The notes under the pieces: generated by a model
The model's input: the letters and a program-made list of their open reading frames with translations, nothing else
Told to the model about the DNA's origin: nothing
The model's database searches: none
Position numbers and translations under genes: made by a program
Shown: piece by piece, positions 28,652 to 41,542 of the stretch
Layout: each line of letters opens with the position of its first letter
Numbering within the stretch: the first letter of the stretch is position 1
IMG/VR virus record: IMGVR_UViG_3300022719_000329
Coordinates: 1-64,000 of that record
DNA: 64,000 nt
Origin: a virus
Strand: one strand, 5' to 3'

Positions 28652-28654
28652 CCA

Positions 28655-29866: not shown

Positions 29867-30383
29867 GGGACAAAGCCTCGGGCATGCTATAGTGTCGCAT
29901 TTGTCTCATAAATTCTCGAGATTCTTGGAACAGATCGCCAATCTTCTCTTCTATTTCAAGACCTTCTTGTATCAGAGTTGGGTCAGATTCCCCAAAGGCT
30001 ATTTTATTTTCTATCGTTAGAAGCCTTATCTCTAATTCAATCATTTCTATCGTTATCTGATAGTACTCGTTATAATATAATCCTAATTCTCCTATCTTCC
30101 AGGCCCGATTGTCATCCTCAGTGCTTCTACCGGCCAAATCAATCCAATCTTGGCAAAGAATGTGGTGTTTTTGGAATCTCCCTATGTCGCCTCTTCTAGG
30201 ACGAATAATATGATAAAGGAACGCATTGTCCATTTCGGTGATACAAGACAGGACTGCCAGGGAGTAAACAGCCTGACGAGATCGGTTTATTTTCTCCGAT
30301 TCTACCACGTGGCTTTCAAAGAGGCCTATCTGGGCTACCATGATAGCGGCCATCGTAACAAAGAAAAGAAACCAGCGTCGCAT
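29850..30383 (-). CDS. membrane-anchored protein
   Basis: 177 aa; N-terminal TM WFLFFVTMAAIMVAQIGL. Confidence 0.4.
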   Translation of the reverse strand: MRRWFLFFVTMAAIMVAQIGLFESHVVESEKINRSRQAVYSLAVLSCITEMDNAFLYHIIRPRRGDIGRFQKHHILCQDWIDLAGRSTEDDNRAWKIGELGLYYNEYYQITIEMIELEIRLLTIENKIAFGESDPTLIQEGLEIEEKIGDLFQESREFMRQMRHYSMPEALSHGYRE

Positions 30384-30673
30384 TAGAATTCCTCAATATC
30401 CATCAAAGGCTTCTGCGGCTGATCTTTACCTTGCACCATGTCATTTAGAGCATCCACCAACATTTGCATCTGCTTGATATTAGGTTGGACTACTGTGATA
30501 ATTTTGGATATTTCTGGGAATTGTTTCCGTAAGTTTTTGGCCGCTCCTAATTCTAATTCGGGATCTTCGTGATCGAAAGATATAAACATTTCCATATCGT
30601 CAGATATGCCAACGAACCGGCAACCGGAAATATTTTGTTCTATAAACTCTGCATATTTTTTGGGGTCAACCAT
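30383..30673 (-). CDS. hypothetical protein
   Basis: 96-aa ORF; 1-nt overlap with the next gene. Confidence 0.4.
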   Translation of the reverse strand: MVDPKKYAEFIEQNISGCRFVGISDDMEMFISFDHEDPELELGAAKNLRKQFPEISKIITVVQPNIKQMQMLVDALNDMVQGKDQPQKPLMDIEEF

Positions 30674-30943
30674 GCTAACCTCTATCCCTACGTATATTGA
30701 TCCAGCGCAGGGCCATGTAATACATCGTATCTTCTATCCACTTGAGCCCAGACCGATCTTGGTTCTGGGCACATTTTACTAATTCCAATAGCAATAATTT
30801 TTTAATGTAGTTTGCCATGGGAGGCTGTTTCTTGTTATATGAGTTCATTTTTCTCGTAGATTACCTCCACCTTATGAATCATATGTATAAGCCAAATAGC
30901 CTCAATCAATCCTCCTTCTAAATCATCTAGTGGTAAAGTGTGA

Positions 30944-31543
30944 TCATCCAATACCTTTCTCAAATGATTGAGCAGCGGTGTTCTGGAGCCCATAGACAAT
31001 CTCCTTCGCTTGGAGGATATCCTCAAAGAAATCTTTCTCAAGTTTCGGTCGATTTCTCAAGACATACGAAGGGTGGTATACAATCATTACCAAAATATCA
31101 GGATCTAGCGGGAACGCGTCTAAATGGCCTCTCTCTTTAGTTATTCTAACAGGTCTTTCTAGAATATACGATGCCGCAATCCTACCAAGCGTTACGATCA
31201 GTTTAGGCCGGATTATTTCTATCTGGCGGGTAAGATAATGTAGTTTACATATCTCGGCTTCTTCGGGAAGGGGGTCCCGGTTATTTGGCGGCCGGCACTT
31301 TACTACATTGGTAATATATACATCCGATCTATTAAGACCTACACGAGTAAGACCCTCGATAAGTAAATTTCCGGAGCGCCCCACAAAAGGTAAGCCTTGT
31401 TCATCCTCCCGTTGGCCCGGACCTTCCCCAATGAACATTATATCGGCATTAGGATTTCCAGCGCCTGGGACTGGGTTAGTTCTGCCTTCGTGTAGAGGGC
31501 AAAATGAACAATTAGCAATTTCTAATTCTAAATCCTCAAGCAT
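30944..31543 (-). CDS. uracil-DNA glycosylase, family 4
   Basis: 199 aa; CSFCPL Fe-S cysteines, GEGPGQREDEQGLPFVGRSG, VYHPSYVLR. Confidence 0.85.
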   Translation of the reverse strand: MLEDLELEIANCSFCPLHEGRTNPVPGAGNPNADIMFIGEGPGQREDEQGLPFVGRSGNLLIEGLTRVGLNRSDVYITNVVKCRPPNNRDPLPEEAEICKLHYLTRQIEIIRPKLIVTLGRIAASYILERPVRITKERGHLDAFPLDPDILVMIVYHPSYVLRNRPKLEKDFFEDILQAKEIVYGLQNTAAQSFEKGIG

Positions 31544-31551
31544 TGTAAATC

Positions 31552-31833
31552 CTAAAGATACTGCCCGTGGCTACGATCCCCGGGATCTTCAGTACCGCCG
31601 GCCGTTGGTAAAGTTCCTTCGGTTCCGCCAAGAGGAATCATAGACATATTACCGCCGAGGCCCATATCATAGAGAGGGAGATTTTGTTCCCCGTACGCGC
31701 GAGCAAATTCGTCCCGGGCCCGTTGTATTTGTTTATTTTGCTTCCAAGACAGCCACATGCCCACAGCAAAATGCAGTGCCTCAATGGTCAACAGGGCGGC
31801 TAGCATGGGACAATATATATTCCAAAAACTCAT
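31552..31833 (-). CDS. membrane protein
   Basis: 93 aa; N-terminal hydrophobic helices. Confidence 0.4.
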   Translation of the reverse strand: MSFWNIYCPMLAALLTIEALHFAVGMWLSWKQNKQIQRARDEFARAYGEQNLPLYDMGLGGNMSMIPLGGTEGTLPTAGGTEDPGDRSHGQYL

Positions 31834-31968
31834 TTGTCACTCCTATAGGTTTCAATCAAACTTGTAACCATTCTGGAAATCCAGGTGTTTCCATCTGTCG
31901 CACCTTCGTACCAAAATGATTGTCCGCACAACGCATATTCTTCTAGAGTTAACTCATTCATTGTGTAA

Positions 31969-32409
31969 CTATACAACGGGTTGTTCTTCTCGGATATCCC
32001 CGGCACTAGTTAGACCTAGGCTTTCATTGTAGGTTTCATGTCCTACCCAGCCTTCGTTGGTTAGGAAGCCCCACTCGCGTCGCTTGCGGAATCTTATGAA
32101 TAAAGTCCAGGCTGGCCCTCGATCCAACTCTACCCAGTGAAATTCCTCGGCGGTTCTAAACTTAAAACTCAAAGGCCCTCGGCGAAGAACAGTACCGTCT
32201 GGCAAATGTTCGAGGTAGCCCCGGGTAAGGGGAATCGAGATGAAGTTCCAAGGATGGTCGTGTGGTACCGAATAATCGCTTATCCAGAATTTATGTGCGT
32301 AAATACCGAAAAGAGGGCATTGAAAAATAACAAATCTGGTGAGATATAATTCTTCCGGGCCTCGATAAATATCTCGTTTAGTTAGCCAATTTCGTTTATA
32401 ACTACTCAT
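31969..32409 (-). CDS. conserved-looking hypothetical protein (HDHPW motif)
   Basis: 146 aa; VPHDHPWNFISIPL ... REWGF; I recognise the family but cannot name it. Confidence 0.45.
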   Translation of the reverse strand: MSSYKRNWLTKRDIYRGPEELYLTRFVIFQCPLFGIYAHKFWISDYSVPHDHPWNFISIPLTRGYLEHLPDGTVLRRGPLSFKFRTAEEFHWVELDRGPAWTLFIRFRKRREWGFLTNEGWVGHETYNESLGLTSAGDIREEQPVV

Positions 32410-32548
32410 TGAATAACCCGCTACTCCTTGGATAATAATAACCTAAAATGGGTAAAAAAGCAATGGTTCGCTGCTAACCATGCGATTTTGAAAAAAATTT
32501 ACGACCTACTAAAAAAGCCTCTTCCCCTTTGTTTGCCAATGCTTTCTT

Positions 32549-32899
32549 TTATTTCTGGTTCAATGGGCCCTGTTCGCGCGTTCCTGCTGTTGTAGTCGGC
32601 CTTCGCCACCCGTACTCATCCCTCCGGGGACGGGCCATCGCTTTCTTACTCGTTACCAACAACATCTCTTCTTTTCTTTTATGAGTACCATAAGCATCAT
32701 AGGTACCAGTCCTCATCTCTATATCTCGTAATCTCTCTCCCATTTCAAGAACCAGATCCACCAGTTCATACATCATCTTCTTGGTTCTATCTCCTGGTAC
32801 ATTCTTTTCTATTTCAGCCACCACCCGTTTGAGGTCGTATACTATCTCCGGTCTTTCCCATGAATCTTCTAAATGTTGATCTAGGTCTTGCTTATCCAT
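32549..32899 (-). CDS. hypothetical protein
   Basis: 116-aa ORF. Confidence 0.4.
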   Translation of the reverse strand: MDKQDLDQHLEDSWERPEIVYDLKRVVAEIEKNVPGDRTKKMMYELVDLVLEMGERLRDIEMRTGTYDAYGTHKRKEEMLLVTSKKAMARPRRDEYGWRRPTTTAGTREQGPLNQK

Positions 32900-33062
32900 T
32901 TCTCCTCTTGCCCCTTCCTAGAGTGAGTAGGAAAGATGAGAGGAAAGCAGACACTAAAGCAGAAGGGAATTGGGAAGACTCTCTATTCCCTTCTTCTATG
33001 TCTCGACTCCCCACTTTTAGATTATTTGGTGCGCGATGAAATTTTGGTACGCGTGCTAAATT

Positions 33063-33263
33063 TCAACAGGCTATGCCGGCTCCTATAACGTAATTGTCGC
33101 AGAAAACACAAACAGCCACGCCCATGCCAATCCAAGCGTAGCTGTGGTTACATCCAAGCCGACATTCTTCTAGTCTTTCTGGACAGCATTTCTCGATTGA
33201 CTCCCAGAAGGTTTTATCGCAATAATTACAGAGATATTTGTAGTGGCATTTTTCAGCCCCCAC
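33063..33263 (-). CDS. small Cys-rich protein
   Basis: 66 aa with 11 Cys. Confidence 0.35.
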   Translation of the reverse strand: MGAEKCHYKYLCNYCDKTFWESIEKCCPERLEECRLGCNHSYAWIGMGVAVCVFCDNYVIGAGIAC

Positions 33264-33302
33264 ATTTCCCCCGCCACTAAATTTTTTCAGCGGCCGCTAA
33301 TT

Positions 33303-33602
33303 TTAGTCCCGACTTCTTTCCAAGGCTTCAGAAATGGCATCATAAACCACATCAAAAAGGAGATCCATATCATCGGTTGTGAAATCGGGGGGAATTCTAG
33401 AGAGAGCCGTTTGGGTAATTTCAGCAATGGCCCAAGGCTCTAGAGAACCAGGGACATCTTCATGGGCCGCTACAATTTTCTCTTCTGTAGTAAACGGATC
33501 TGCCCATGCAGACATTTCTGTGTCCTCAACATCTAGGGATGGGTACTCATCCACGTATTGTTCGAGCACTGCTTCGGCTCGATCCAACATAGTTTGGTTC
33601 AT
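33303..33602 (-). CDS. acidic hypothetical protein
   Basis: 99 aa, strongly Asp/Glu-rich. Confidence 0.4.
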   Translation of the reverse strand: MNQTMLDRAEAVLEQYVDEYPSLDVEDTEMSAWADPFTTEEKIVAAHEDVPGSLEPWAIAEITQTALSRIPPDFTTDDMDLLFDVVYDAISEALERSRD

Positions 33603-33704
33603 CTACTTTCGTTTCCTCCGCGGGACGTGTTCCCGTAAACATCTGGTGCTGATCCTCCCCTATTAGTTTTAGAGGGTCCAGCATATATTTTAGAGGCCCC
33701 CTTT

Positions 33705-33992
33705 TTAGTAAGAAGGGGTGGGATTTCGGCGTTTCTTTTTCTTCTTGCGGGCCTCTTCGAGCATGGACTCGACTTCGCTGGCCATGTCCATAAGGGCATT
33801 GATATATTCTTCGGCTTTTTCTTCTCGGGCCAATTCACTGGTGGCTTGAATGGAACTAAAGTATTCTTCCAAATGGCTTATTCGAGAATCTAGGTCGGCG
33901 AAGACATTTTCAGAACGAGCCATAGAGATTGCTGTACGCAAATATACCATAGCATCCCGCAAGTGACGGCCCTTATTCGTCAGAAATACCAC
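33705..33992 (-). CDS. hypothetical protein
   Basis: 95-aa ORF with a basic KKKKKRRN tail. Confidence 0.4.
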   Translation of the reverse strand: MVFLTNKGRHLRDAMVYLRTAISMARSENVFADLDSRISHLEEYFSSIQATSELAREEKAEEYINALMDMASEVESMLEEARKKKKKRRNPTPSY

Positions 33993-34323
33993 GCTTCCTC
34001 CTGATTATTCGCGACTCTACACGTTCTTCTACTTCTGCATCCTCTAAAGCATGCTCAATTTCTGGTTCTATCGCAAAACGCAAAAGCGACTCGGCTTGGG
34101 CTGGTCCTAGAACCTCCCAAGGAGTCGCTTTACCTTTTTCCAGATGAATATTGATACTGGCTGTACCAGTTCCATTGATAGCATCCTGCCGATGGTCTTC
34201 TCTAGTTTCTATAAAATCTTCTTCAGTCAGATGGGTTCTGCTCATTTTGTTCCCACTCCTCAACAACTCTTTGGACGTGGTCGGGATTTTCCATAGCGTA
34301 CCGGACTTTCTGGTACTTCTCAT
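33973..34323 (-). CDS. hypothetical protein
   Basis: 116-aa ORF. Confidence 0.4.
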   Translation of the reverse strand: MRSTRKSGTLWKIPTTSKELLRSGNKMSRTHLTEEDFIETREDHRQDAINGTGTASINIHLEKGKATPWEVLGPAQAESLLRFAIEPEIEHALEDAEVEERVESRIIRRKRGISDE

Positions 34324-34612
34324 AGAAGGCCCGTTCAGTATTCATGTAAAATTGGCGGAGATTGTCCTTATCGATAATTTTCTCGGACAATAGAATATCT
34401 TCTTCGGCGCCCAAAACCCCTTTGTCCACTAATAGGTCTCGAAGGAATTTATTAGAGGCTGCCAATTCGGCGATTAAAAATAACATGGACCAAAAACTAC
34501 CTTGGGTCTGCTTCTCCCTCTCCGTCAGTTCCTGGTATCCCTGCTGGGTTTTCTCCGCCGCTCTCTTCAGATCCTCCCCCGTCATTCGGTCTTGGGGTGT
34601 TCGAGTCTCCAC
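34223..34612 (-). CDS. hypothetical protein, paralog of 34497-34994
   Basis: 129 aa; FWSMLFLIAE..LLVDKGVL..NP aligns with YSAMMYIITE..LLKVGAL..NP of the upstream gene; start uncertain. Confidence 0.4.
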   Translation of the reverse strand: METRTPQDRMTGEDLKRAAEKTQQGYQELTEREKQTQGSFWSMLFLIAELAASNKFLRDLLVDKGVLGAEEDILLSEKIIDKDNLRQFYMNTERAFYEKYQKVRYAMENPDHVQRVVEEWEQNEQNPSD

Positions 34613-34994
34613 TTGGAATTACCTCCTCTTGCGGAAATGGTGTAGATGGTTGGTACTGTTCCGGATTGGCCAGTACTTCCTTTACCCTCACAAAATAACT
34701 AGCGAACCTAGTGTAAAGATCGTTATAAACTGGATTCAATATCTCGGAGTTTCCATAGACCCCGGTAATTTTCTCCAGTTGGTTCGTATTCAAAGCCCCG
34801 ACCTTCAATAGTTCTTCTAACAACTTGCCAATCAGCGCCTGCTGTTCGGTAATAATATACATCATGGCTGAATAGTTAGCCTGCATATTCTCCCAAGATG
34901 TTAGGTTTCTTTCTTCTTGTTCGGGACTATTTTCCTCTTCATTCTGATGCATAGTATGATCCTCTAAATGAAAGCGAAACTTTCTCTCTGGCAA
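34497..34994 (-). CDS. hypothetical protein, paralog of 34223-34612
   Basis: 165-aa ORF; see the paralog alignment under 34223-34612. Confidence 0.45.
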   Translation of the reverse strand: MPERKFRFHLEDHTMHQNEEENSPEQEERNLTSWENMQANYSAMMYIITEQQALIGKLLEELLKVGALNTNQLEKITGVYGNSEILNPVYNDLYTRFASYFVRVKEVLANPEQYQPSTPFPQEEVIPSGDSNTPRPNDGGGSEESGGENPAGIPGTDGEGEADPR

Positions 34995-35013
34995 TTTATC
35001 TGCCGCAAACCTG

Positions 35014-35073
35014 GGCTAAATGCCGGCTAAATCGGCAAATGACAGAGAAATAATAAGATCAATCTGGCTAAAT
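35014..35073. repeat. three GGCTAAAT direct repeats upstream of 34994
   Basis: GGCTAAAT at 35014, 35025 and 35066, plus GGCAAAT at 35034. Confidence 0.35.
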
Positions 35074-35093
35074 TGCAACAAAATTTCCTTTGA

Positions 35094-35303
35094 TTATAAG
35101 TGAAGCCCGGACACCGCGTAAACCAATATTCCGACGACAGAAGAAAAGAAAGTAAGTCCCATCAGATACCCAATGAGAACTCTATCCCTCTTCCTATTCT
35201 CATCGATACAAGCCCATAGATAGAACACGAAGAATAAGAATATGCTGGCGATGGCCCCGCTAAAACTCATGCTGTGTACCCATTGGGCTGTTTCAGGACT
35301 CAC
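35094..35303 (-). CDS. small membrane protein
   Basis: 69 aa, two hydrophobic helices. Confidence 0.4.
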   Translation of the reverse strand: MSPETAQWVHSMSFSGAIASIFLFFVFYLWACIDENRKRDRVLIGYLMGLTFFSSVVGILVYAVSGLHL

Positions 35304-35481
35304 GTCTGGCTCTCCTGTCTTCTAGTTTGTTTTGTACCCCTGCTTTTAGAAATAAAGCCAACTGGCCCCAGAACCACAGGCAAACAGTGGCCATCACTAA
35401 TATAACAGTGCCGGCTATAAGTCCAACAGCAGCACCGAATAGTGTACTGGTCAGTGAGATAAGTAGATCTACAAATTCCAT
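35293..35481 (-). CDS. small membrane protein
   Basis: 62 aa from the ATG at 35481 (GGAGGTG-N6); two TM helices; first gene of the left arm. Confidence 0.4.
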   Translation of the reverse strand: MEFVDLLISLTSTLFGAAVGLIAGTVILVMATVCLWFWGQLALFLKAGVQNKLEDRRARRES

Positions 35482-35500
35482 CAGAGTCACCTCCAAGGAA

Positions 35501-35529
35501 ATAATAAGGTATCAGGCACCCCATGTCAA
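35501..35529 (-). promoter_or_regulatory. sigma70-type promoter TTGACA-17-TATTAT for the left arm
   Basis: Minus strand reads TTGACAtggggtgcctgataccttATTAT-type layout, immediately upstream of the SD/ATG of 35481. Confidence 0.5.
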
Positions 35530-35653
35530 TAATTATCTTCCCCTCTAGGTAATTAGTACACTGGATATAAATTGATCCTCCCCTTTAGATTTGAAAGTGG
35601 TCCCAGTGTGTAACAGGCACCCCATATGTACTCCTGTACACGAACAGTTCAGC

Positions 35654-35679
35654 GGCATTATAGGGCCACCTATAATGCC
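35654..35679. promoter_or_regulatory. perfect 11+11 bp palindrome (operator candidate)
   Basis: GGCATTATAGG gcca CCTATAATGCC, abutting the AGGAGG SD of the first plus-strand gene. Confidence 0.45.
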
Positions 35680-35691
35680 AGGAGGTACAAC

Positions 35692-35838
35692 ATGGCTCCT
35701 ATCGTTGCCGGGCTCCGTCTCGTCTGCACCCTGTGCAGGTCCGAGACGTACTCCTCTCCCCCGCTCAACACGGAGGAGATCCGAGAGGCGCACGATGTCT
35801 GCACATCGTGTGCTCGCGAGATGAATCTCACTCGCTAG
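35692..35838 (+). CDS. small zinc-ribbon protein
   Basis: 48 aa; CTLC ... CTSC; AGGAGG SD; GC content jumps at this ATG. Confidence 0.45.
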   Translation: MAPIVAGLRLVCTLCRSETYSSPPLNTEEIREAHDVCTSCAREMNLTR

Positions 35839-35860
35839 TCCCTCGCTTCGCTCGGGAGGA

Positions 35861-35871
35861 GTATTTTCTCC
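35861..35871 (+). promoter_or_regulatory. promoter-like motif class B (GTATTTTCTCC)
   Basis: AT-rich 11-mer in GC-rich DNA, 87 nt upstream of the ATG at 35948. Confidence 0.45.
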
Positions 35872-35947
35872 TCCGCTCGATTCCTCGCTCCGGGACCGCG
35901 TGCACGGTGTGCGCGGGCCCTGGGCGTCCATGTGGGAGAACCACACC

Positions 35948-36307
35948 ATGTCCGCCAACTCTCAGAACCTCTCGCTGCGCTTCGAGGACGTCCGCTTCCG
36001 TGCGCACATCCGTGAGCACGAGCAGACGACCTTCATCGGCTACGCCGACGCCACCCTGGTGGCGCCCAGCGTACTGCCCGATGGCTCGGACCTGAAGCTC
36101 CGCATCCGCGGGATCGAGGTGAAGCTCACCTCGAACGGCCCGCGGATCGACTTCAAGTCCGAGAAGGGTCGGGACGGTTCGTGGTACCCCGTGCTCTTCC
36201 CGAAGAGCGCGGAGTCGCGCACGGCCCTGACCGTGGCGCTGCTCGCGGACCCCACGGTCCGCGCGGTCGTCGACGCGCACCAGGAGCGCTTCGCCGCCCA
36301 GGCGTAG
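35948..36307 (+). CDS. SpoVG-fold nucleic-acid-binding protein, paralog 1
   Basis: 119 aa; TFIGYADATL..LKLRIRGIEVKL..FKSEKGRDGSWYPVLFPKSAESR matches the SpoVG strand/loop pattern. Confidence 0.6.
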   Translation: MSANSQNLSLRFEDVRFRAHIREHEQTTFIGYADATLVAPSVLPDGSDLKLRIRGIEVKLTSNGPRIDFKSEKGRDGSWYPVLFPKSAESRTALTVALLADPTVRAVVDAHQERFAAQA

Positions 36308-36353
36308 CGCTCGCACTCCGTGCTCCCTGGGTCCGATCCCCAGGGAGCACCAG

Positions 36354-36393
36354 GCCCTCACTCGCAGTCCGCTGCGGGTGAGGGCTTTTTTTT
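36354..36393 (+). terminator. intrinsic terminator
   Basis: 14-bp GC stem GCCCTCACTCGCAG/CTGCGGGTGAGGGC followed by T8. Confidence 0.8.
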
Positions 36394-36535
36394 CGTACGG
36401 CACCGCTGAACTCGCTGTACACCGGACCCCCATTAAACGCCAGCGATTCAGCGCCAGGGTCATGGTGGGAAACTCGTCTAGTTCGCGGTGTTCATTCGTT
36501 GCCCGCCGCCGGAAAAGTACTACTAGTAGGAACTA

Positions 36536-36548
36536 CCCGTAGTTGCTC
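36536..36548 (+). promoter_or_regulatory. promoter-like motif class A variant (CCCGTAGTTGCTC)
   Basis: Contains the exact core GTAGTTGCTC; about 200 nt upstream of 36738 and 100 nt upstream of a class B motif. Confidence 0.35.
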
Positions 36549-36639
36549 GCTTCGCTCGCAGGGAGAGAACTCCCGATTAGTACGATTTTGAACGGGGGGA
36601 ACAAATCGTGGCCTCCCGTTACTAGAGAGAACTACCCAG

Positions 36640-36650
36640 GTATTTTCTCT
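36640..36650 (+). promoter_or_regulatory. promoter-like motif class B (GTATTTTCTCT)
   Basis: 98 nt upstream of the ATG at 36738. Confidence 0.45.
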
Positions 36651-36737
36651 GATTGTTCGAGGGCCCGGGCCTGTAGAGGTCCAGACAGCCCGGAAGCCCT
36701 AATTCACACTGGACCATCACGTGAGAGGTACATGTAC

Positions 36738-37154
36738 ATGGCCGACATCAATCGGAAGATGGCCGAGATGCTCTGGAAGCAGGTCAGCCTGAACGTCGAT
36801 CGGTTCCACCCCAAGATCGTGGCTCACGAGAAGAGCACCTTCCTGGGCTACGCCGACGTGACCATCGAGCTGCCCAACCTCCCGGGCTTCAAGCTCAAGC
36901 TCCGGGGCATCGAGGCCAAGGTGCTCAAGGGCAACCCGCACCTCGACATGCCCACCGAGAAGGGCGCGGACGGCAAGTTCTACCCGCGCTACTTCCCGCT
37001 GAGCGGCGAGCTCCGGGCGGTGATGACCACCAAGCTCTTCCAGCACACCGACGTGGCCAGCGCTCTCGAGGCCGCCAAGCAGGCGGCCATCGACAGCGGC
37101 CGCACCGAGGCCCACCAGGCCGAGCCGGGCACCGACAACCCCTTCGCCGGGTAG
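36738..37154 (+). CDS. SpoVG-fold nucleic-acid-binding protein, paralog 2
   Basis: 138 aa; TFLGYADVTI..LKLRGIEAKV..MPTEKGADGKFYPRYFPLSGELR; C-terminal GTDNPFAG. Confidence 0.6.
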   Translation: MADINRKMAEMLWKQVSLNVDRFHPKIVAHEKSTFLGYADVTIELPNLPGFKLKLRGIEAKVLKGNPHLDMPTEKGADGKFYPRYFPLSGELRAVMTTKLFQHTDVASALEAAKQAAIDSGRTEAHQAEPGTDNPFAG

Positions 37155-37205
37155 CCCAGCGCCGGGTACCAGTCGGTACCACAAGAGAGCCCTCCACTCG
37201 AGGAT

Positions 37206-37244
37206 CCCCCCAACAGGGACCTCCGGGTGGGGGGCTTTTTTTTT
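37206..37244 (+). terminator. intrinsic terminator
   Basis: CCCCCCA/TGGGGGG stem followed by T9. Confidence 0.75.
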
Positions 37245-37645
37245 CGTACTAACCCGCCCGATCTAGAGATCCCACCCCCATGAGAGAACTAGGAAGTCCC
37301 TCCCTCGTTACGCTCTGGGGCCAAAGATATGGTACTGACCTTGTCCAGTTAGCTGTTCCTTGCCTGATCGATAGGTATCGATCGATAGAGATAGATAGGA
37401 GAGCCTGCTAGTCGTGGTACTAAGGAGGTGAGTACCAAGAGAGCAGGGAACCACTGGTACCTAGGTACCCAGATAGTAGAACCACTGAAACCCCAGTAAT
37501 CAGATAGTAGGACTAGAGGAGTCCCGGAACCACATGAGAGAATCGATCGAGTGAGTGCGATCGAGTACCCCAGTTGGTTCCTCCCATCCCACATCCAAGG
37601 TACCACTACAGCGAGCTGGCGAGCACTACAGCGCCCTTATAAGTA

Positions 37646-37659
37646 CTATATAGTTGCTC
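37646..37659 (+). promoter_or_regulatory. promoter-like motif class A variant (CTATATAGTTGCTC)
   Basis: Core TAGTTGCTC; 193 nt upstream of the ATG at 37839. Confidence 0.4.
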
Positions 37660-37838
37660 CCTCTCCAGGTCTATCTCCCTGTCTGCCCTACTGATTTCCT
37701 ACCAGGAGGGAAACCCTGAAAGAACTCCTCTCCTGAGCGATTCTAGAGCGTCTGATTGTGCATCTGGAGAGAGTCTCTATATGTATTACCAGACGCTACC
37801 CGACCGGTACCTAACCGGTACTAAACGAGGTGAACCAC

Positions 37839-38120
37839 ATGAGCAGCATCCTAACTCACGAAGCCATGGAGGTCCTGTCCTCTGTGGAGGATAGGCTGGA
37901 CGGCGTGGCCGAAGCCATGGGTACCTCCCCTACGGAGGTACTGGCCCTGCTCCAGCGCCACCGTACCCCCCGCTGTGCCGTGCAGGGGTGCAACGAGCCC
38001 GCCGCCTTCGAGGGGTGGGTACGCCTCCGAGACGGCTTTGGTCAGCCCCCAGGACCCCGACGCCGGGTAGTGGTGTGTGAGAACCCCGAGCACATACGCC
38101 TCCTGCGTGAGAACCAATAG
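37839..38120 (+). CDS. hypothetical protein
   Basis: 93 aa from the ATG after GAGG-N8. Confidence 0.5.
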   Translation: MSSILTHEAMEVLSSVEDRLDGVAEAMGTSPTEVLALLQRHRTPRCAVQGCNEPAAFEGWVRLRDGFGQPPGPRRRVVVCENPEHIRLLRENQ

Positions 38121-38248
38121 GGGAGAGACGCCATGTCCAAACCCATAAACGGCAACATTCCGGCCGAGGGAGCCCTGCCCTTGGCATGATGGTTGCTCGC
38201 CCCTTCCCGAGGGGGCGCTGTCCCACACCCAATAGGGAGGATTACCCC

Positions 38249-38551
38249 ATGCCCCGAATCGAAAGCCAATCAGAGCGCATGCGCCGGATCGCTCGAGAGA
38301 TCCGGCATCGCCAAGCCACCAGCCCCTTCTCAGTGCGGGTGGCTCTGCACGTCTTCTTCAAGGGGAGGCGAGGCCCGCGACGGCTGCCTCCGTTCTCCAA
38401 GCGCTATCAGGTGAATCCCCGGAAGAATCCGGAGAGCCAGTTGGTTCGCCGGGAGCTGATCGATCGGGCCTGGAACGAGGCTATCAAGGCCAACACGGCC
38501 TTCCCGGCGGAGGACCTGGTGATCACCCTGAAGGAGTACAAGGTACTCTAG
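38249..38551 (+). CDS. hypothetical basic protein
   Basis: 100 aa from the ATG after AGGGAGG. Confidence 0.5.
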   Translation: MPRIESQSERMRRIAREIRHRQATSPFSVRVALHVFFKGRRGPRRLPPFSKRYQVNPRKNPESQLVRRELIDRAWNEAIKANTAFPAEDLVITLKEYKVL

Positions 38552-38564
38552 AAAGGGCTAGGCC

Positions 38565-38750
38565 ATGTGTCAGTCACACCCGGTTTATTGCATGGACTGC
38601 GGCTCGAAATGTGGTACCAGCGAGATTTCGGGTAGTACTACCATCTGCAATCTCTGCCTGGTTCGCCGCTACGGCCCCAGTCTTTCCCCCGAACCCCCGG
38701 AGGTGGGCTCCGATGCGTTAGACCCGAAGACCCACAAAGAAGGAGAATGA
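38565..38750 (+). CDS. small zinc-ribbon protein
   Basis: 61 aa; CMDCGSKCG ... CNLC. Confidence 0.4.
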   Translation: MCQSHPVYCMDCGSKCGTSEISGSTTICNLCLVRRYGPSLSPEPPEVGSDALDPKTHKEGE

Positions 38751-38896
38751 ACTCCCGCACCAACCAAAAGAACGGCCCAGTCATTCTGGGCGAGACAGCC
38801 GGGATCCCAAACTCCGCCAGAGAGCGGTACTTGGGTGAAAACCTGTTCTCGCCCAACTTTTTCGCCAAGGGTAATACCTTGGGTGTTCTTCCCTGA
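38747..38896 (+). CDS. possible small protein (49 aa)
   Basis: ATGA overlap with the upstream stop; third codon positions mostly G/C; below the ORF-track size cutoff. Confidence 0.25.
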   Translation: MNSRTNQKNGPVILGETAGIPNSARERYLGENLFSPNFFAKGNTLGVLP

Positions 38897-39118
38897 ACTT
38901 GATCCTACCGGAAGGATGCATTCCTAGCACACAGCTGGCCTCGTGGCGGGGCTTGCCAAGGAGTATCCTGCTCTCCTCCCACAGGAGAGTCAACAATCTT
39001 TCCTTCCGGGGCCTCCAGGGCCATCCATTCGGAGATTGCAAGGATACTTACTGCCACACCTTGGATGGCCCTCCCGAAGTTTTGCTTAGGGAGGGCTGTC
39101 CTCCACTTCCAAGGGGCG
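38897..39118 (+). other. structured non-coding segment (several GC hairpins)
   Basis: Hairpins CTCTCC/GGAGAG, GGGCCATCCA/TGGATGGCCC (39018-39071) and CCTCCC/GGGAGG; no ORF. Confidence 0.25.
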
Positions 39119-39132
39119 CTAGGTAGTTGCTC
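39119..39132 (+). promoter_or_regulatory. promoter-like motif class A (CTAGGTAGTTGCTC)
   Basis: 54 nt upstream of the ATG at 39173. Confidence 0.5.
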
Positions 39133-39172
39133 CTCTTGTTGAACCAACTTCCCCACGGAGGTAAAAACCAAG

Positions 39173-39502
39173 ATGCAAGAAATCGGACCGGTGACCAAGT
39201 TCCGAGAGCTGGCTCAGATCTACCACGGTGTGACCGAGATGGAGGAGGGCCAGTTCGTACAACTGCCGAGTGGACTCTCGGCCCAAGTCAAGAAGTTCCG
39301 CTCCAAGAATCTGCGCTACATCGACTGGCGAGGCATCCGCTACGTGGAGCAGAACCCCAACTCCCGCTCGGCCTACGCCGCCAGGGCCCGCCAAGGTGCC
39401 AAGATCGTCTGGTGTATTCGGCTGCGGGACAACCAGTACCTCGGCCGCATCGAGCAGGACCAGGTGTTCATGAAGGAGCAGGCCTGGGCATCCCGGGCCT
39501 GA
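39173..39502 (+). CDS. hypothetical protein, paralog family EQNP (member 1)
   Basis: 109 aa; YVEQNPNSRSAYAARARQGAKIVWCIRLRDNQYLGRIEQDQVFMKE aligns with the 43259 protein. Confidence 0.55.
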   Translation: MQEIGPVTKFRELAQIYHGVTEMEEGQFVQLPSGLSAQVKKFRSKNLRYIDWRGIRYVEQNPNSRSAYAARARQGAKIVWCIRLRDNQYLGRIEQDQVFMKEQAWASRA

Positions 39503-39518
39503 ACCAAGAGGAGGGACT

Positions 39519-39815
39519 GTGCGTCAATTCTACACCGACGACTGGCCGGACGAAGAAGGTCAACCGCAGTTCTTCCTGATGGATAACATTCGTTGGGGGG
39601 AAACCGAGGCCTATGCATGCCAGCAGGCTAGGAGGCCCGAGGAATTGGTCAAGCTCGAACTCTCAGCCGGCGCCGTCCTCCTCATCCACCACGGTGGGAT
39701 AGAGGAGTTCCCGACCGTACCTGCAGCCCTGCGCCGCATGACCGAGATCATCGAAGAAGAAGAGCAGAAGCCTCTCTTAACCACCCACCCAGAGGAAAGG
39801 AAATCCCCATGCTGA
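39519..39815 (+). CDS. hypothetical protein
   Basis: 98 aa; GTG start after GGAGGGA. Confidence 0.45.
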   Translation: MRQFYTDDWPDEEGQPQFFLMDNIRWGETEAYACQQARRPEELVKLELSAGAVLLIHHGGIEEFPTVPAALRRMTEIIEEEEQKPLLTTHPEERKSPC

Positions 39816-39976
39816 ATTCGGAGACGAAGGAGAAGTTGCGCAAGCTGGTCTACGAGGCCGACACACGGTCGGCGAGCGCCAGGAACCGCATAGAGTCGCT
39901 GCGGCCTCTCGAGGCTCTGGAGGACATCCGCCGGGCCCAGGTGGTCCTCGCCAAGATCATCGGCATCCTGGCCTAG
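39809..39976 (+). CDS. small helical protein (55 aa)
   Basis: ATG overlaps the upstream stop (ATGCTGA); GC3-rich; below the track cutoff. Confidence 0.4.
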   Translation: MLNSETKEKLRKLVYEADTRSASARNRIESLRPLEALEDIRRAQVVLAKIIGILA

Positions 39977-40001
39977 CCAGAATCCCCACAGGAGAACTAC
40001 C

Positions 40002-40310
40002 ATGGGACTACGCTCCCTGAAGATCGTCGAGGAGGAGATCGCCAAGGTCATGCCTCGCCTTCGAGATGGCCCGATCCAGGTCGATGGCCGTACTCTCGCC
40101 AACATCCTGACCACTCTCCAAGCCCGCCTCAGCACTCGGATCGAGGCCGAGTGCATCGAGGTGGACGAAGACACCGCCGAAGCCCTTGATCGGCTGGCCG
40201 ACCCCGCCCAGGAGTGGGTGACCCACGACCAGGTCGAAGCTCACATCGGAAGACCCAACTGTGGGTGTGCCGACCATCGCGACCCGCTGCATCCCTGCCC
40301 TCACGACTAG
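40002..40310 (+). CDS. hypothetical protein
   Basis: 102 aa; AGGAGA SD. Confidence 0.45.
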   Translation: MGLRSLKIVEEEIAKVMPRLRDGPIQVDGRTLANILTTLQARLSTRIEAECIEVDEDTAEALDRLADPAQEWVTHDQVEAHIGRPNCGCADHRDPLHPCPHD

Positions 40311-40334
40311 GGGCAGTCCCGATTCCCTGAACTT

Positions 40335-40405
40335 GAACCAAGCAAGGGCTGCTTGGGTTCCGTGGGGAGAGCCCGGCCCTGGAGTGCAACCCAGGGCCGG
40401 GCTCC
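40335..40405 (+). terminator. tandem GC hairpins (U-tract-less terminator candidates)
   Basis: GAACCAAGCA/TGCTTGGGTTC, then the 14-bp stem GAGCCCGGCCCTGG/CCAGGGCCGGGCTC. Confidence 0.5.
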
Positions 40406-40555
40406 ATCCCCCGAAGTACGCAACTAGTCCCTCCCACCCATGAATCCCACCCTACCCCCAAAGAGATACCAATGCGTGACTGGGTGTTCACGGTGTTGCG
40501 CGTTCATGGTCGGACAATTCGCCCGGCTCCTTGCCGGTGCTCATGAGAGGACTAC

Positions 40556-40720
40556 ATGCAAACCGCGACCCTTCTGTGCCTGTTGCTGGCGATTATCGCC
40601 ATCACTGGGCTCTTGAGTGGCAAGCTAGATGAGACGGAGGATATCCGAATCTACTGGTCGAAGGCCGTTCGCCTTCTTCTGGGATTAGCCCTACTGTTCC
40701 ATCTGTTGAGCCTTTGGTAG
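40556..40720 (+). CDS. small membrane protein (54 aa)
   Basis: Two hydrophobic helices; below the track cutoff. Confidence 0.35.
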   Translation: MQTATLLCLLLAIIAITGLLSGKLDETEDIRIYWSKAVRLLLGLALLFHLLSLW

Positions 40721-40760
40721 GCTCTAACCCGAGGAACTAATACAACGGAGGCCAACAACC

Positions 40761-41069
40761 ATGACCGAGCATACTTGGTACAAGTGTACTCAGCCCTGCC
40801 ACAAGCCCCACTGCATGTTCTGTGAAGGTGGCCTCGGCTGGTGCACCGCCTGCGATGGTTTCGAAGGCTCGCTTCCCACCCACTGCCCGGGCCGCAAGAT
40901 CGGCGAGTCCGACCAGCAGCTAATCTACAAGAGCACTCTAGACTTCCGGGATGGCCAGTGGGTCAATCGGTCCCTGGAGAGCTGGGAACAGAGCCGTGAG
41001 TACGACCCCTCCCAGAGCGTGGAGATCGACCGTGCAGTCCTCCGCCTAAACCAGGAGATGACAACATGA
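40761..41069 (+). CDS. Cys-rich protein
   Basis: 102 aa; CTQPCHKPHCMFCEGGLGWCTACDG; GGAGG SD. Confidence 0.45.
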   Translation: MTEHTWYKCTQPCHKPHCMFCEGGLGWCTACDGFEGSLPTHCPGRKIGESDQQLIYKSTLDFRDGQWVNRSLESWEQSREYDPSQSVEIDRAVLRLNQEMTT

Positions 41070-41458
41070 GCAACGACGACAAGAAACTCGAAAGCCTCTA
41101 TCGCTCCACCGAAGTCACCAGTAGGGCTTGCGATGCCCTGCGCATGTCCTTGGAGACCATGCGCACCTCGGGATTCTTCGACGAGGCGGAGCTGGAGATC
41201 CTGGCCGCCATCGACGAAGGAGTCATAGAACTTCAAGAGCGCTTCACGGACCGCCGGCTGGACATGATCGCCCAGGTAGCCCCCGAAGCCTTGGCCGAGG
41301 CTGTCGAAGTGGCCGAGTCCATCGGCGCCGAGCCGGGCGAGGTGGAGGCCATCCAGGAGCGTGTCTACCAGCGCACTCTCCAGGCCGTTCGCGAAGACCC
41401 CCACTCTGCCGCCTTGGCCAACCAAGTGGCCAAGCGAGATGACGATCCCATCCACTAG
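41066..41458 (+). CDS. hypothetical acidic helical protein
   Basis: 130 aa; ATGA overlap with the upstream gene. Confidence 0.45.
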   Translation: MSNDDKKLESLYRSTEVTSRACDALRMSLETMRTSGFFDEAELEILAAIDEGVIELQERFTDRRLDMIAQVAPEALAEAVEVAESIGAEPGEVEAIQERVYQRTLQAVREDPHSAALANQVAKRDDDPIH

Positions 41459-41505
41459 AGGGAGCCTCGGTACTTGCCGGGGCTCCCTCTGCTACCTTGT
41501 CAGCT

Positions 41506-41519
41506 CTAGGTAGTTTCTC
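41506..41519 (+). promoter_or_regulatory. promoter-like motif class A (CTAGGTAGTTTCTC)
   Basis: 37 nt upstream of the ATG at 41543, just after the hairpin AGAGGGAGCC/GGCTCCCTCT. Confidence 0.45.
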
Positions 41520-41542
41520 CGGCTTTCGAGGAGGTAACTGGC

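What the first reader, a model, noticed from the sequence alone, without database searches (positions are those of the whole stretch)
35497..35691. Abrupt composition and strand switch at a 195-bp divergent control region
Left of ~35.5 kb every gene is on the minus strand and the DNA is visibly AT-rich. From the ATG at 35692 every gene is on the plus strand and the DNA is GC-rich. The spacer contains four elements. (1) A sigma70-consensus promoter for the left arm at 35501-35529. (2) A 12-nt direct repeat CAGGCACCCCAT at 35513 and 35614, the first copy inside that promoter spacer. (3) A class A-like box at 35545. (4) A perfect 11+11 bp palindrome at 35654-35679 touching the first plus-strand SD. 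Either this is an assembly chimera, or it is a genuinely bipartite genome whose arms differ in origin and in transcription regime (host-type promoters versus motif A/B). AT-richer islets with sigma70-type promoters recur inside the right arm at 61.3-62.1 and 62.6-63.5 kb, which favours mosaicism over a simple chimera.
Basis: partly seen in the sequence, partly recalled or inferred. Interest (0 to 1): 0.7.

Follow-up and report, generated by a model that had tools for sequence, protein, structure and literature searches.

The report
Conserved two-composition phage genome junction
A 195-bp control region in a large uncultured phage really does separate an AT-rich, leftward-read half from a GC-rich, rightward-read half; the same junction and GC step occur in about ten related phage lineages, so it is an inherited and apparently maintained feature, not an assembly error or a recent gene swap.

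Summary
GC rises from 44.7% (1-35496, all genes on the minus strand) to 60.8% (35692-61000, all genes on the plus strand). GC3 is 0.43 versus 0.76, intergenic GC 0.43 versus 0.57. Tetranucleotide signatures correlate 0.88 within arms and 0.24-0.36 between them.

It is not a chimera. An independent JGI contig (99.6% identical, 5 SNPs) and a 295.8-kb contig span the junction. About ten related lineages from other metagenomes have the same gene order and the same AT-to-GC step (+6 to +17 points).

It is not a recent mosaic. Against a 90%-identical relative, four-fold-site divergence is equal in both arms (0.307 versus 0.313). Relatives whose left-arm four-fold sites are saturated still show the step.

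In the spacer:
- The leftward sigma70-type promoter (TTGACA-17-TATTAT, 35529-35501) is conserved in every lineage with a freely varying spacer.
- A rightward non-sigma70 module (ATCyTCCCCT, CAGTGTGTAAC..GG.ACCC, TA(G/T)GTACT, TTATAGGGCC) is conserved with fixed spacing.
- The palindrome is lineage-specific apart from one arm.
- The 12-nt repeat recurs in only one other lineage.
- The box at 35545 is not conserved.

What maintains the GC difference is unknown. Host unknown.

The parts
1..35481 (-). AT-rich arm. GC 44.7%, GC3 0.43. All genes are on the minus strand. It encodes nucleotide-metabolism and replication genes (DnaX-like clamp loader, UDG, NDK, peptide deformylase, DeoC). It continues beyond the window start into ThyA, DHFR, NusG and the large terminase.
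35293..35481 (-). First leftward gene, a 62-aa predicted membrane protein. Its ATG is at 35481-35479 and its SD GGAGGTG at 35494-35488, only 6 nt from the -10 hexamer.
35501..35529 (-). P_L, a sigma70-type promoter TTGACA-17-TATTAT. The hexamers and the 17-nt spacing are conserved in 10 or more lineages while the spacer sequence varies.
35513..35524 (+). Copy 1 of the 12-nt direct repeat CAGGCACCCCAT, inside the P_L spacer.
35535..35544 (+). ATCTTCCCCT box, copy 1. L086 has a single box. L097 and L112 have two.
35545..35554 (+). It is not conserved and lacks CTCC. Probably not a functional member of the motif family.
35561..35574 (+). CTGGATATAAATTG, an AT-rich box shared with the distant lineage L112 and similar to (c)TGATATATGG in L093, L098, L101 and L103. 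Possibly a weak rightward extended -10. Absent from L086.
35575..35584 (+). ATCCTCCCCT box, copy 2. Present in all lineages, about 20 nt upstream of Box 1.
35604..35622 (+). Box 1, CAGTGTGTAACAGGCACCC. Conserved across the clade and unique in the window. It contains copy 2 of the 12-nt repeat (35614-35625).
35625..35636 (+). TATGTACTCCTG, which reads TAGGTACT(C)TCC in relatives. It resembles the right-arm motif TAGGTAGTnnCTCC and is the candidate rightward promoter core.
35654..35679 (.). Perfect 11+11 palindrome with a 4-nt loop. It is identical in L086. Only the left arm TTATAGGGCC (35658-35667) is conserved across the clade. Other lineages carry different hairpins at this position.
35680..35838 (+). 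SD AGGAGG (35680-35685) and the first rightward gene (35692-35838), a 48-aa CxxC...CxxC protein.
35836..35871 (+). Right-arm motif pair: TAGTCCCTC... starting at 35836 and TATTTTCTCC at 35862-35871. They lie upstream of the SpoVG-fold gene and are conserved in L086.
35948..36307 (+). 119-aa SpoVG-fold protein with GC3 0.94, the hallmark first conserved gene of the GC-rich arm. It is followed by a strong intrinsic terminator at 36352-36387 plus a T run.
36738..37154 (+). Paralogue of the SpoVG-fold gene (GC3 0.83 for ORF 36543-37154). Terminator-like hairpin at 37220-37234.
35692..61053 (+). GC-rich arm. GC 60.8%, GC3 0.76. All genes are on the plus strand. They are mostly small ORFans plus a PIF1-like helicase, SSB, SNase, a DprA-like protein and HNH. 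The arm continues at 50-67% GC to at least 74 kb beyond the window.
61404..62057 (+). AT-richer islet 1, an Endonuclease_7/HNH-type gene (GC3 0.45).
62561..63436 (+). AT-richer islet 2. A 12 of 12 sigma70-type site (62561-62589) precedes a metallophosphatase gene (62675-63436, GC3 0.49).

Best explanation
The spacer at 35497-35691 is the real divergent control region of a large, uncultured tailed phage of bacteria. This contig comes from a Namib salt-pan metagenome, and relatives occur in other metagenomes. The genome is built from two co-inherited compartments.

- Leftward (shown by comparison, not by experiment). A near-consensus sigma70 promoter, P_L, drives the AT-rich arm. Its mRNA should begin about 13 nt before the first ATG, right at the SD.
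- Rightward (conservation shown, function inferred). A roughly 95-bp non-sigma70 module lies upstream of the first GC-rich operon. Its order is ATCyTCCCCT, 20 nt, CAGTGTGTAAC.GG.ACCC, TA(G/T)GTACT.CTCC, about 25 nt, TTATAGGGCC. It most likely contains a promoter of the same class as the TAGGTAGTnnCTCC / TATTTTCTCC motifs scattered through that arm. The palindrome then serves as a 5'-leader hairpin placed just before the SD.
- Composition. The step is an ancestral trait of the clade and is kept in place. It affects codon positions 1, 2 and 3 and intergenic DNA. It has survived saturation of left-arm four-fold sites.

My inferred mechanism (about 35% likely): the GC-rich arm is the fast-turning-over accessory or takeover compartment. 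It is tuned to a GC-rich host and read by a different recognition system. The AT-rich arm is the vertically stable core read from sigma70 promoters. Nucleotide-level selection or arm-specific mutation or repair bias, not history, holds the two apart.
For: Independent support for the junction.
- L003, from JGI sample 3300023214, is 99.64% identical over 35250-36626 with 5 SNPs.
- The junction genes also lie on a 295,848-bp contig.
- Eight contigs from the SRR171651xx runs carry a 90%-identical SpoVG-fold protein, and those read have the same gene order. In the ones long enough to profile (L086-L088) GC goes from 0.44 to 0.61.
- L091, L092 and L093 and eleven metagenome loci with sequence on both sides of the junction all show the right side richer in GC by +0.056 to +0.166, 14 of 14 loci in all, about 10 independent lineages.

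Co-inheritance. The F81 distance at four-fold sites between the window and L086 is 0.307 (95% CI 0.255-0.364) on the left and 0.313 (0.236-0.399) on the right.

Maintenance.
- Four-fold identity to L091 and L092 is 0.27-0.31 in the left arm, which is saturated.
- GC4 nevertheless stays at 0.42-0.49 on the left and 0.77-0.93 in the right-arm gene.

Pervasiveness.
- GC1/2/3 are 0.53/0.38/0.43 on the left and 0.63/0.45/0.76 on the right.
- Tetranucleotide signatures correlate 0.87-0.88 within arms and 0.24-0.36 between them.
- Intergenic GC is 0.43 versus 0.57.

P_L. It reads TTGAC(A/G)-17-TAT(T/A)AT in the window, L086, L091 (12 of 12), L092, L093, L096, L097, L101, L103, L107 and L112, with unrelated spacer sequences; L098 has a weaker -10, TATATT.

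Rightward module. It has conserved boxes and spacing in 10 lineages.

Right-arm motif family.
- The TAGTnnCTC pattern has 10 plus-strand and 2 minus-strand hits in 35.7-73.8 kb, and TATTTTCTCC adds 4 more plus-strand hits.
- Most lie upstream of start codons.
- It is conserved in L086 and present in distant lineages, often followed by a hairpin.
- No sigma70-like site of 10 of 12 or better occurs in 35.7-61 kb, against 13 minus-strand and 5 plus-strand sites in the left arm.

The right arm turns over faster. Mean amino-acid identity to L086 is 84% versus 92% on the left, with several gene replacements and insertions.
Against: - No transcription data exist, so the rightward start site and the machinery that reads it are unknown.
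- No RNA polymerase or sigma gene was seen in the roughly 84 kb examined (Pfam hits).
- In the window and L086 the candidate rightward core is a weaker variant (TATGTACT).
- sigma70-like sites overall are not enriched over shuffles in the left arm.
- For the most distant lineages only 1-3.5 kb of right arm is available, and one gene provides the GC4 values.
- The size of the step varies from +6 to +17 points.
- The host and its GC content are unknown. The peptide deformylase search was uninformative. The host-tuning part of the mechanism is therefore untested.
- The AT-rich islets inside the GC-rich arm show that composition is not strictly positional.
Confidence: 0.8

Rival explanations
1. 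Assembly chimera. Two unrelated genomes of 44% and 61% GC were joined by the assembler at 35.5 kb.
For: The change in GC, codon usage and tetranucleotide signature is as large as between unrelated organisms.
Against: - The identical junction appears in an independent JGI assembly carrying SNPs, in a 295.8-kb contig, and in 8 contigs of a 90%-identical relative from other runs.
- It also appears in about 10 more distant lineages.
- Synonymous divergence is equal on both sides.
Confidence: 0.01
2. Historical mosaic. A GC-rich module from a phage of another host was fused to an AT-rich phage, and the step is a relic that has not yet ameliorated.
For: - The composition signatures differ like those of separate genomes.
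- The functions that occur in both arms (UDG, lytic transglycosylase) are unrelated in sequence, so they are not duplicates.
- Gene content of the right arm is fluid.
- Lambda shows that segmental GC exists in mosaic phages (PMC2266997).
Against: - The arms have the same synonymous distance to L086.
- The junction, its promoter and the first right-arm gene are shared by lineages whose left-arm four-fold sites are saturated (identity 0.27-0.31), yet GC4 stays apart.
- Under one uniform mutation regime that much change should have erased a relic.
- An ancient fusion as the origin remains possible, but it does not explain the persistence.
Confidence: 0.12
3. Prophage-host or element-element boundary. 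One arm is a phage, and the other is host chromosome or a separate integrated element.
For: A sharp composition boundary with tRNA genes further to the right.
Against: - The GC-rich arm is phage-like for at least 38 kb. It holds small ORFans, HNH and Endonuclease_7 genes, PIF1-like helicase, SSB and SNase, with no housekeeping genes.
- No integrase or recombinase Pfam hit lies within about 45 kb to the left or 38 kb to the right of the junction.
- The scan of GTDB genomes with the hallmark protein found nothing.
- The same junction occurs in divergent lineages, and synonymous divergence is equal on both sides.
Confidence: 0.02
4. The spacer is mainly a replication origin or the physical genome end or packaging start, and the composition step reflects replication or packaging polarity instead of transcription.
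For: The spacer is an AT-rich gap between divergent units. It holds unique conserved boxes, a repeated ATCyTCCCCT box and a palindrome.
Against: - Cumulative GC skew runs straight through the junction. Its only turning point in the window is near 61 kb.
- No iteron array is present.
- Many contigs read through the site.
- Replication polarity explains skew, not a 16-point GC difference.
- This rival is not exclusive of the promoter role.
Confidence: 0.1

Closest known systems
Segmental GC distribution of phage lambda (GC-rich left half, AT-rich right half)
   Same: A single phage chromosome is divided into long contiguous blocks with very different GC3. The blocks coincide with functional or transcriptional modules. 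Lucks et al. [quoted passage not shown]
   Different: - Here the boundary is a step less than 300 bp wide, placed exactly at a divergent promoter region.
- The polarity is reversed. The arm carrying the terminase, replication and nucleotide-metabolism genes is the AT-rich one.
- The step is shared by about 10 lineages past saturation of left-arm four-fold sites.
- The arms show equal synonymous divergence from a close relative. The mosaic-exchange explanation usually given for lambdoid phages therefore does not fit.
Divergent early control regions of phages (for example lambda PL/PR, back-to-back promoters)
   Same: A short intergenic region launches two oppositely oriented transcription units. 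It contains a consensus-like sigma70 promoter, repeated short sequences and a palindrome.
   Different: - Only the leftward promoter is sigma70-like.
- No repressor or Cro-like gene flanks the region.
- The repeat that could be an operator is conserved in only 2 of about 10 lineages.
Phages whose gene blocks are read by different transcription machineries or promoter classes (Xp10, T7, N4, SPO1, T4 middle and late promoters). Recalled from the literature, not tested here.
   Same: One block carries host-type promoters. Another carries a phage-specific short motif repeated upstream of many genes, together with intrinsic terminators.
   Different: - No phage RNA polymerase, sigma factor or activator gene has been found in the 84 kb examined.
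- The motif (core TAGTnnCTC) matches none of the promoter classes I know.
- In the phages I recall, blocks read by different machineries do not differ in GC by anything like 16 points.
SpoVG family (the first conserved gene of the GC-rich arm)
   Same: The predicted fold (pLDDT 87) has SpoVG structures as its ten best PDB matches, with E 2e-4 and TM 0.55-0.67.
   Different: There is no significant sequence match to Pfam SpoVG. The protein has an extra C-terminal helical hairpin. It occurs as phage paralogues. Nucleic-acid binding is untested.

Membership tests
sigma70-type bacterial promoter (P_L, 35529-35501, minus strand) | -35 TTGACA and -10 TATAAT hexamers | tested here: met
   TTGACA / TATTAT, 11 of 12. 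L091 has 12 of 12.
sigma70-type bacterial promoter (P_L, 35529-35501, minus strand) | 17 +/- 1 bp spacing, correct strand, upstream of a gene | tested here: met
   The spacer is 17 nt. The first minus-strand ATG is at 35481.
sigma70-type bacterial promoter (P_L, 35529-35501, minus strand) | Hexamers conserved while the spacer diverges in relatives (phylogenetic footprint) | tested here: met
   10 or more lineages keep the hexamers and the 17-nt spacing with unrelated spacer sequences.
sigma70-type bacterial promoter (P_L, 35529-35501, minus strand) | Mapped transcription start, or activity with sigma70 holoenzyme | not testable with these tools
   Needs 5'-end mapping or in vitro transcription.
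Assembly chimera | Junction absent from independent assemblies | tested here: not met
   The junction is present in the JGI contig L003, in a 295.8-kb contig and in relatives from many samples.
Assembly chimera | The two sides have unrelated evolutionary histories | tested here: not met
   Four-fold-site distance to L086 is 0.307 on the left and 0.313 on the right.
Assembly chimera | No reads or read pairs span the junction | not testable with these tools
Right-arm promoter-like motif family ('class A/B'), for the box at 35545 | TAGGTA(G/C)T core followed within 1-3 nt by CTC(C/A) | tested here: not met
   35545 reads CTAGGTAATTAGTACAC with no CTCC.
Right-arm promoter-like motif family ('class A/B'), for the box at 35545 | Lies about 25-60 nt upstream of a plus-strand start codon | tested here: not met
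   It is 147 nt from the ATG at 35692.
Right-arm promoter-like motif family ('class A/B'), for the box at 35545 | Conserved in relatives | tested here: not met
   It is absent from L086. L112 keeps the neighbouring CTGGATATAAAT box but not this one.
Right-arm promoter-like motif family, for the element at 35625-35636 | Core, downstream CTCC and conservation | tested here: inconclusive
   Relatives read TAGGTACT(C)TCC at this position. The window and L086 read TATGTACTCCTG. Function is untested.
Intrinsic terminator (palindrome 35654-35679) | GC-rich stem followed by a T run | tested here: not met
   The stem is AT-rich in its middle and is followed by AGGAGGTACAAC. The terminator scan did not call it.
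Operator pair for a dimeric or bivalent regulator (12-nt direct repeat) | Both copies conserved or co-varying across relatives | tested here: inconclusive
   - L096 also has a 10-nt repeat (GGGCACCCAT) at the same two places.
- L086 has diverged at 4 of 12 positions in copy 2.
- Seven other lineages have no repeat.
Lambda-like mosaic segmental GC heterogeneity | Long contiguous blocks of distinct GC3 matching functional modules | tested here: met
   GC3 is 0.43 versus 0.76.
Lambda-like mosaic segmental GC heterogeneity | Blocks have separate histories (exchanged between relatives) | tested here: not met
   The arms are co-inherited with equal synonymous distance, and the junction is shared across the clade. 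Only individual right-arm genes are exchanged.
SpoVG family (gene 35948-36307) | SpoVG fold | tested here: met
   The ten best Foldseek PDB matches are all SpoVG, with E 2e-4.
SpoVG family (gene 35948-36307) | Sequence match to Pfam PF04026 | tested here: not met
   No hit at E <= 1.

The most novel reading that the evidence does not exclude
Base composition is itself a maintained functional label. The phage chromosome is partitioned into an AT-rich compartment read from sigma70 promoters and a GC-rich compartment read through a phage-specific motif. Proteins that discriminate by composition would keep the two programmes apart. Candidates are the abundant SpoVG-fold proteins encoded first in the GC-rich arm, or host silencers that bind AT-rich DNA. 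That discrimination would supply the selection that has preserved a 33-point GC3 gap through saturating divergence.
Probability: 0.15. Interest if true: 0.85.

Novelty: new variant of a known kind. Interest (0 to 1): 0.6.

Why it matters
Large compositional differences inside one virus genome are usually read as scars of recent gene exchange, or as assembly or binning errors.

Here a step as large as that between unrelated organisms is co-inherited and sits exactly at a conserved divergent promoter region. It has outlasted saturation of left-arm four-fold sites in a widespread clade of uncultured phages.

- It provides a natural system for asking what holds base composition in place within a single replicon. 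Candidates are mutation bias, biased repair or gene conversion, and selection linked to the transcription programme or to host defence.
- It is a practical warning. Composition-based binning, chimera filters and host prediction would split or mis-assign such genomes.

Tried and rejected
- blastn of 33.5-37.5 kb against GenBank phages found no match.
- tblastn with the clamp loader and the PIF1-like helicase found only relatives below 42% identity in unrelated phages.
- IMG/VR scans found nothing with the SpoVG-fold protein. UDG found only distant genomes sharing 4 or fewer genes.
- The GTDB genome scan with the hallmark protein alignment found nothing.
- Peptide deformylase as a host clue gave 45% identity or less, spread over many phyla, so it was uninformative.
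- Rfam found only the tRNA.
- Pfam and PHROGs on about 30 right-arm proteins gave almost no hits.
- Cluster look-up gave no names.
The far boundary of the GC-rich arm and the full 296-kb genome were therefore not seen.
- A rightward sigma70 promoter built on the TATAAT inside the palindrome was rejected. Its -35 matches only 3 of 6, the start would fall inside the SD, and it is not conserved in L091 or L092.
- sigma54 and ECF-type readings of Box 1 were considered, and neither consensus fits.
- Duplication as the source of the second UDG and lytic transglycosylase was rejected because the copies are unrelated.
- Three literature searches on compositionally split phage genomes found only the lambda description.
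Full report
**1. The observation**

The composition step is real and sharp.
- GC is 44.7% over 1-35496, 43.6% in the spacer and 60.8% over 35692-61000.
- In 200-nt windows GC rises from 0.44 to 0.58-0.62 between 35500 and 35800.
- All credible genes to the left are on the minus strand.
- To the right, the ORFs with a coding signature (GC3 0.7-0.98, GC2 low) are on the plus strand. The gene calls stored with the public contig agree.

The difference is pervasive.
- GC1/GC2/GC3 are 0.53/0.38/0.43 on the left and 0.63/0.45/0.76 on the right.
- Codon choice differs radically. ATA is 37% versus 4% of Ile codons, TTA 20% versus 1% of Leu, and AAA 65% versus 16% of Lys.
- Amino-acid usage shifts as well.
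- Composition-normalised tetranucleotide signatures correlate 0.87-0.88 within arms but only 0.24-0.36 between them.
- Intergenic DNA follows the arm it lies in, 0.43 versus 0.57. Codon-level translational selection alone therefore cannot explain the gap.

- The 12-mer occurs exactly twice in the window.
- The palindrome is one of ten perfect hairpins with arms of 10 bp or more, where 0.8 are expected.

**2. Not a chimera**

- The window is part of a 117.5-kb contig from run SRR23862439. That run belongs to a Namib Desert salt-pan metagenome (bioRxiv 10.1101/2022.02.18.481119).
- A JGI contig from a different sample (L003) covers 35250-36626 at 99.64% identity. Its five differences all fall in 35730-35758.
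- The junction genes also sit on a 295,848-bp contig.
- Homologues of the first conserved right-arm protein led to a 90%-identical relative found on eight contigs from other runs (L086-L090).
  - It has the same gene order on both sides.
  - It has the same step, 0.44 to 0.61.
- More distant relatives are L091 (71% amino-acid identity), L092 (60%) and L093 (59%). Seventeen short metagenome loci add further lineages.
- In all 14 loci that have sequence on both sides, the right side is richer in GC by 5.6 to 16.6 points.

**3. Not a recent mosaic**

- Against L086 the left arm is 91.7% identical and collinear. The right arm is 84-89% identical, with several gene replacements and insertions.
- At four-fold degenerate sites of orthologues the two arms are equally diverged.
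  - p is 0.251 and 0.248.
  - The F81 distance is 0.307 (95% CI 0.255-0.364) on the left and 0.313 (0.236-0.399) on the right.
  - The arms therefore share one history since that split.
- Against L091 and L092, four-fold identity in the left arm is 0.27-0.31, which is saturated.
  - GC4 nevertheless stays at 0.42-0.49 on the left and 0.77-0.93 in the right-arm gene, in every lineage.
- A relic of foreign origin should have been erased by that much change under one mutation regime. The difference is being maintained.
- Caveat: for the distant lineages only 1-3.5 kb of right arm is available.

**4. Anatomy of the spacer in the light of relatives**

(a) P_L
- It reads TTGACA-17-TATTAT on the minus strand (35529-35501).
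- The hexamers and the 17-nt spacing are kept in ten or more lineages. Variants are TTGACG and TATAAT, and L091 is 12 of 12. The spacer sequence differs freely between them.
- This is a textbook phylogenetic footprint of a working sigma70 promoter.
- The SD of the first gene begins 6 nt after the -10 hexamer in the window, L086, L092, L096 and L112. This predicts an mRNA that starts at its own SD.

(b) Rightward module
- All lineages share the order ATCyTCCCCT, about 20 nt, CAGTGTGTAAC.GG.ACCC, TA(G/T)GTACT(C)TCC, about 25 nt, TTATAGGGCC, with fixed spacing.
- Box 1 and TTATAGGGCC are unique in the window.
- No sigma70-like site points rightward.

(c) TA(G/T)GTACT.CTCC
- It resembles the motif found upstream of many right-arm genes: TAGGTAGTTkCTCC at 39120, 41507, 43219 and 44139, and TATTTTCTCC at 35862, 54792, 57588 and 60077.
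- The common core is TAGTnnCTC. That pattern has ten plus-strand and two minus-strand hits in 35.7-73.8 kb, and TATTTTCTCC adds four plus-strand hits.
- The motif is conserved in L086 and recurs in distant lineages, often running into a hairpin.

(d) The palindrome
- It is identical in L086.
- Elsewhere only its left arm is kept. Other hairpins occupy the same place, for example TTATAGGG...CCCTATAA in L103.
- That fits a 5'-leader structure better than a fixed protein-binding site.

(e) The 12-nt repeat
- L096 has its own 10-nt repeat (GGGCACCCAT) at the same two positions, which hints at an operator pair or at gene conversion.
- L086 differs at 4 of 12 positions in the second copy.
- Seven other lineages have no repeat.

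(f) The box at 35545
- It lies between two ATCyTCCCCT boxes (35535-35544 and 35575-35584). L086 has only one such box.
- It lacks CTCC and is not conserved.
- The adjacent CTGGATATAAAT(T/G)G is shared with L112.

**5. Transcription regimes**

- Sites matching sigma70 at 10 of 12 or better number 13 on the coding (minus) strand and 5 on the other strand in the left arm, and none in 35.7-61 kb.
- At the looser 9 of 12 threshold neither arm exceeds shuffles. 'Host-type promoters throughout the left arm' is therefore only weakly supported. P_L is the one clear case.
- Inside the GC-rich arm, the AT-richer metallophosphatase gene is preceded by a 12 of 12 site at 62561-62589. The site before the Endonuclease_7 gene is weak.
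- Composition thus tends to go with promoter type, not strictly with position.
- Which arm is early cannot be decided.
  - Many small ORFans with individual promoters and terminators look like an early takeover region.
  - In known phages, however, consensus sigma70 promoters usually mark early genes and phage-specific motifs mark later ones. This last point is recalled knowledge.

**6. What the phage is**

The host is bacterial.
- The AT-rich arm carries a DnaX-type clamp loader, UDG, NDK, peptide deformylase, DeoC, MazG, a lytic transglycosylase and an actin-like (Volactin/MreB) protein.
- Beyond the window start it carries ThyA, DHFR, a dNMP kinase, NusG and a T4-type large terminase.
- Peptide deformylase, Pol III-type clamp loader subunits, bacterial-type SSB and lytic transglycosylases are all bacterial features.

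The GC-rich arm continues to at least 74 kb at 50-67% GC.
- It carries a PIF1-like helicase, two SSBs, SNase, a DprA-like protein, HNH genes, a second unrelated UDG and a second unrelated lytic transglycosylase.
- It also carries tRNA-Gln (CTG and TTG) and tRNA-Leu (CAA).

Its first conserved gene (35948-36307, GC3 0.94) has a paralogue at 36738-37154.
- It models confidently (pLDDT 87).
- Its ten best structural matches are all SpoVG.
- Sequence profiles do not detect the relationship.

No close relative exists in GenBank phages, IMG/VR or GTDB genomes.

**7. Mechanism and rivals**

Shown:
- The join is real.
- The arms are co-inherited.
- The step and P_L are conserved across the clade.
- A rightward non-sigma70 module is conserved.

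Inferred:
- The module contains the rightward promoter of the right-arm motif class.
- The hairpin acts as a leader structure.

The cause of the composition gap is open.
- The intergenic and GC2 shifts argue against pure codon selection.
- The AT-rich islets argue against a purely positional replication or repair effect, unless they are recent insertions.
- The right arm's faster protein evolution and gene flux would fit recombination-associated GC-biased conversion or continued sampling from a GC-rich gene pool. Yet a vertically inherited gene keeps GC4 near 0.8-0.9.
- My preferred reading is that arm-specific nucleotide-level selection or mutation bias, tied to the two expression programmes and probably to a GC-rich host, maintains the gap. 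I hold it with modest confidence.

Rivals:
- Chimera and prophage-host boundary are effectively excluded.
- An ancient fusion may be the origin but does not explain the persistence.
- An origin or terminus role for the spacer is untested. GC skew does not support it, because the cumulative minimum is near 61 kb and not at 35.5 kb.

**8. Comparison with known systems**

- The nearest precedent is the two-halves GC3 structure of lambda (PMC2266997), which is usually ascribed to mosaicism.
- This case differs in four ways: the boundary is sharp, it coincides with a divergent control region, it is conserved across a clade, and the two arms have demonstrably equal age.
- I class it as a new variant of a known kind.

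**9. Verdict**

The genome is genuinely bipartite and has two promoter styles. It is neither a chimera nor a simple recent mosaic.
- Interest 0.6.

Noticed in passing
window 35948-36307 and 36738-37154 (+); also 57674-58213: - Paralogous small proteins with extreme GC3 (0.83-0.96).
- Each is preceded by the right-arm motif. The first two are followed by terminator-like hairpins, a strong one after the first.
- The first models as a SpoVG fold, although no sequence profile detects it.
- The third has a weak Pfam SpoVG hit (E 0.05).
- About 40 homologues exist, all in metagenomes.
   Followed up: partly
window 20281-21624 (-): A 447-aa protein matching Pfam Volactin (E 1e-65) and MreB, so the AT-rich arm of the phage encodes an actin-like protein.
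   Followed up: no
window 13972-14823 (-): A patatin-like phospholipase gene in the phage (Pfam E 7.5e-25).
   Followed up: no
window 37155-37829: A 675-nt stretch without a convincing ORF (GC 0.53) between the second SpoVG-fold gene and the next gene. It is rich in short repeats (GGTACC, GATAG, ATCGATCGA) and contains a TAGTTGCTCC motif at 37651. It is partly conserved in L086. It could be an origin or a non-coding RNA locus.
   Followed up: no
window 35488-35506 (-); same arrangement in L086, L092, L096 and L112: The SD of the first leftward gene starts only 6 nt after the -10 hexamer of P_L. This predicts an mRNA whose 5' end is the SD itself, with a leader of about 13 nt.
   Followed up: partly
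L096:139-260: This relative has its own 10-nt direct repeat (GGGCACCCAT) in the P_L spacer and in Box 1. It mirrors the window's CAGGCACCCCAT pair but with two concerted changes. This suggests an operator pair or local gene conversion.
   Followed up: partly
window about 61000: Cumulative GC skew falls steadily from 1 to about 61 kb and then rises. The only turning point in the window coincides with the first AT-rich islet, not with the junction.
   Followed up: no
window 63441-63516; L004:11042-11118 and L004:18506-18594: tRNA-Gln(CTG), tRNA-Gln(TTG) and tRNA-Leu(CAA) lie in the GC-rich arm. The last two decode CAA and TTG, which are much commoner in the AT-rich arm (58% and 24% of their families) than in the GC-rich arm (32% and 9%).
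   Followed up: partly
window 13941, 16462, 19621, 22893, 36320, 40369, 43193, 56643, 59994: Perfect hairpins with arms of 10-14 bp are about tenfold commoner than expected. In the right arm most lie between genes, next to the promoter-like motifs or terminators.
   Followed up: partly
window 61054-61116 and 61318-61403: Odd hexamer arrangements flank the Endonuclease_7 islet: TTGACG directly abutting TATAAT, and TTGACT-7 nt-TATAAT. These are not canonical promoters.
   Followed up: no
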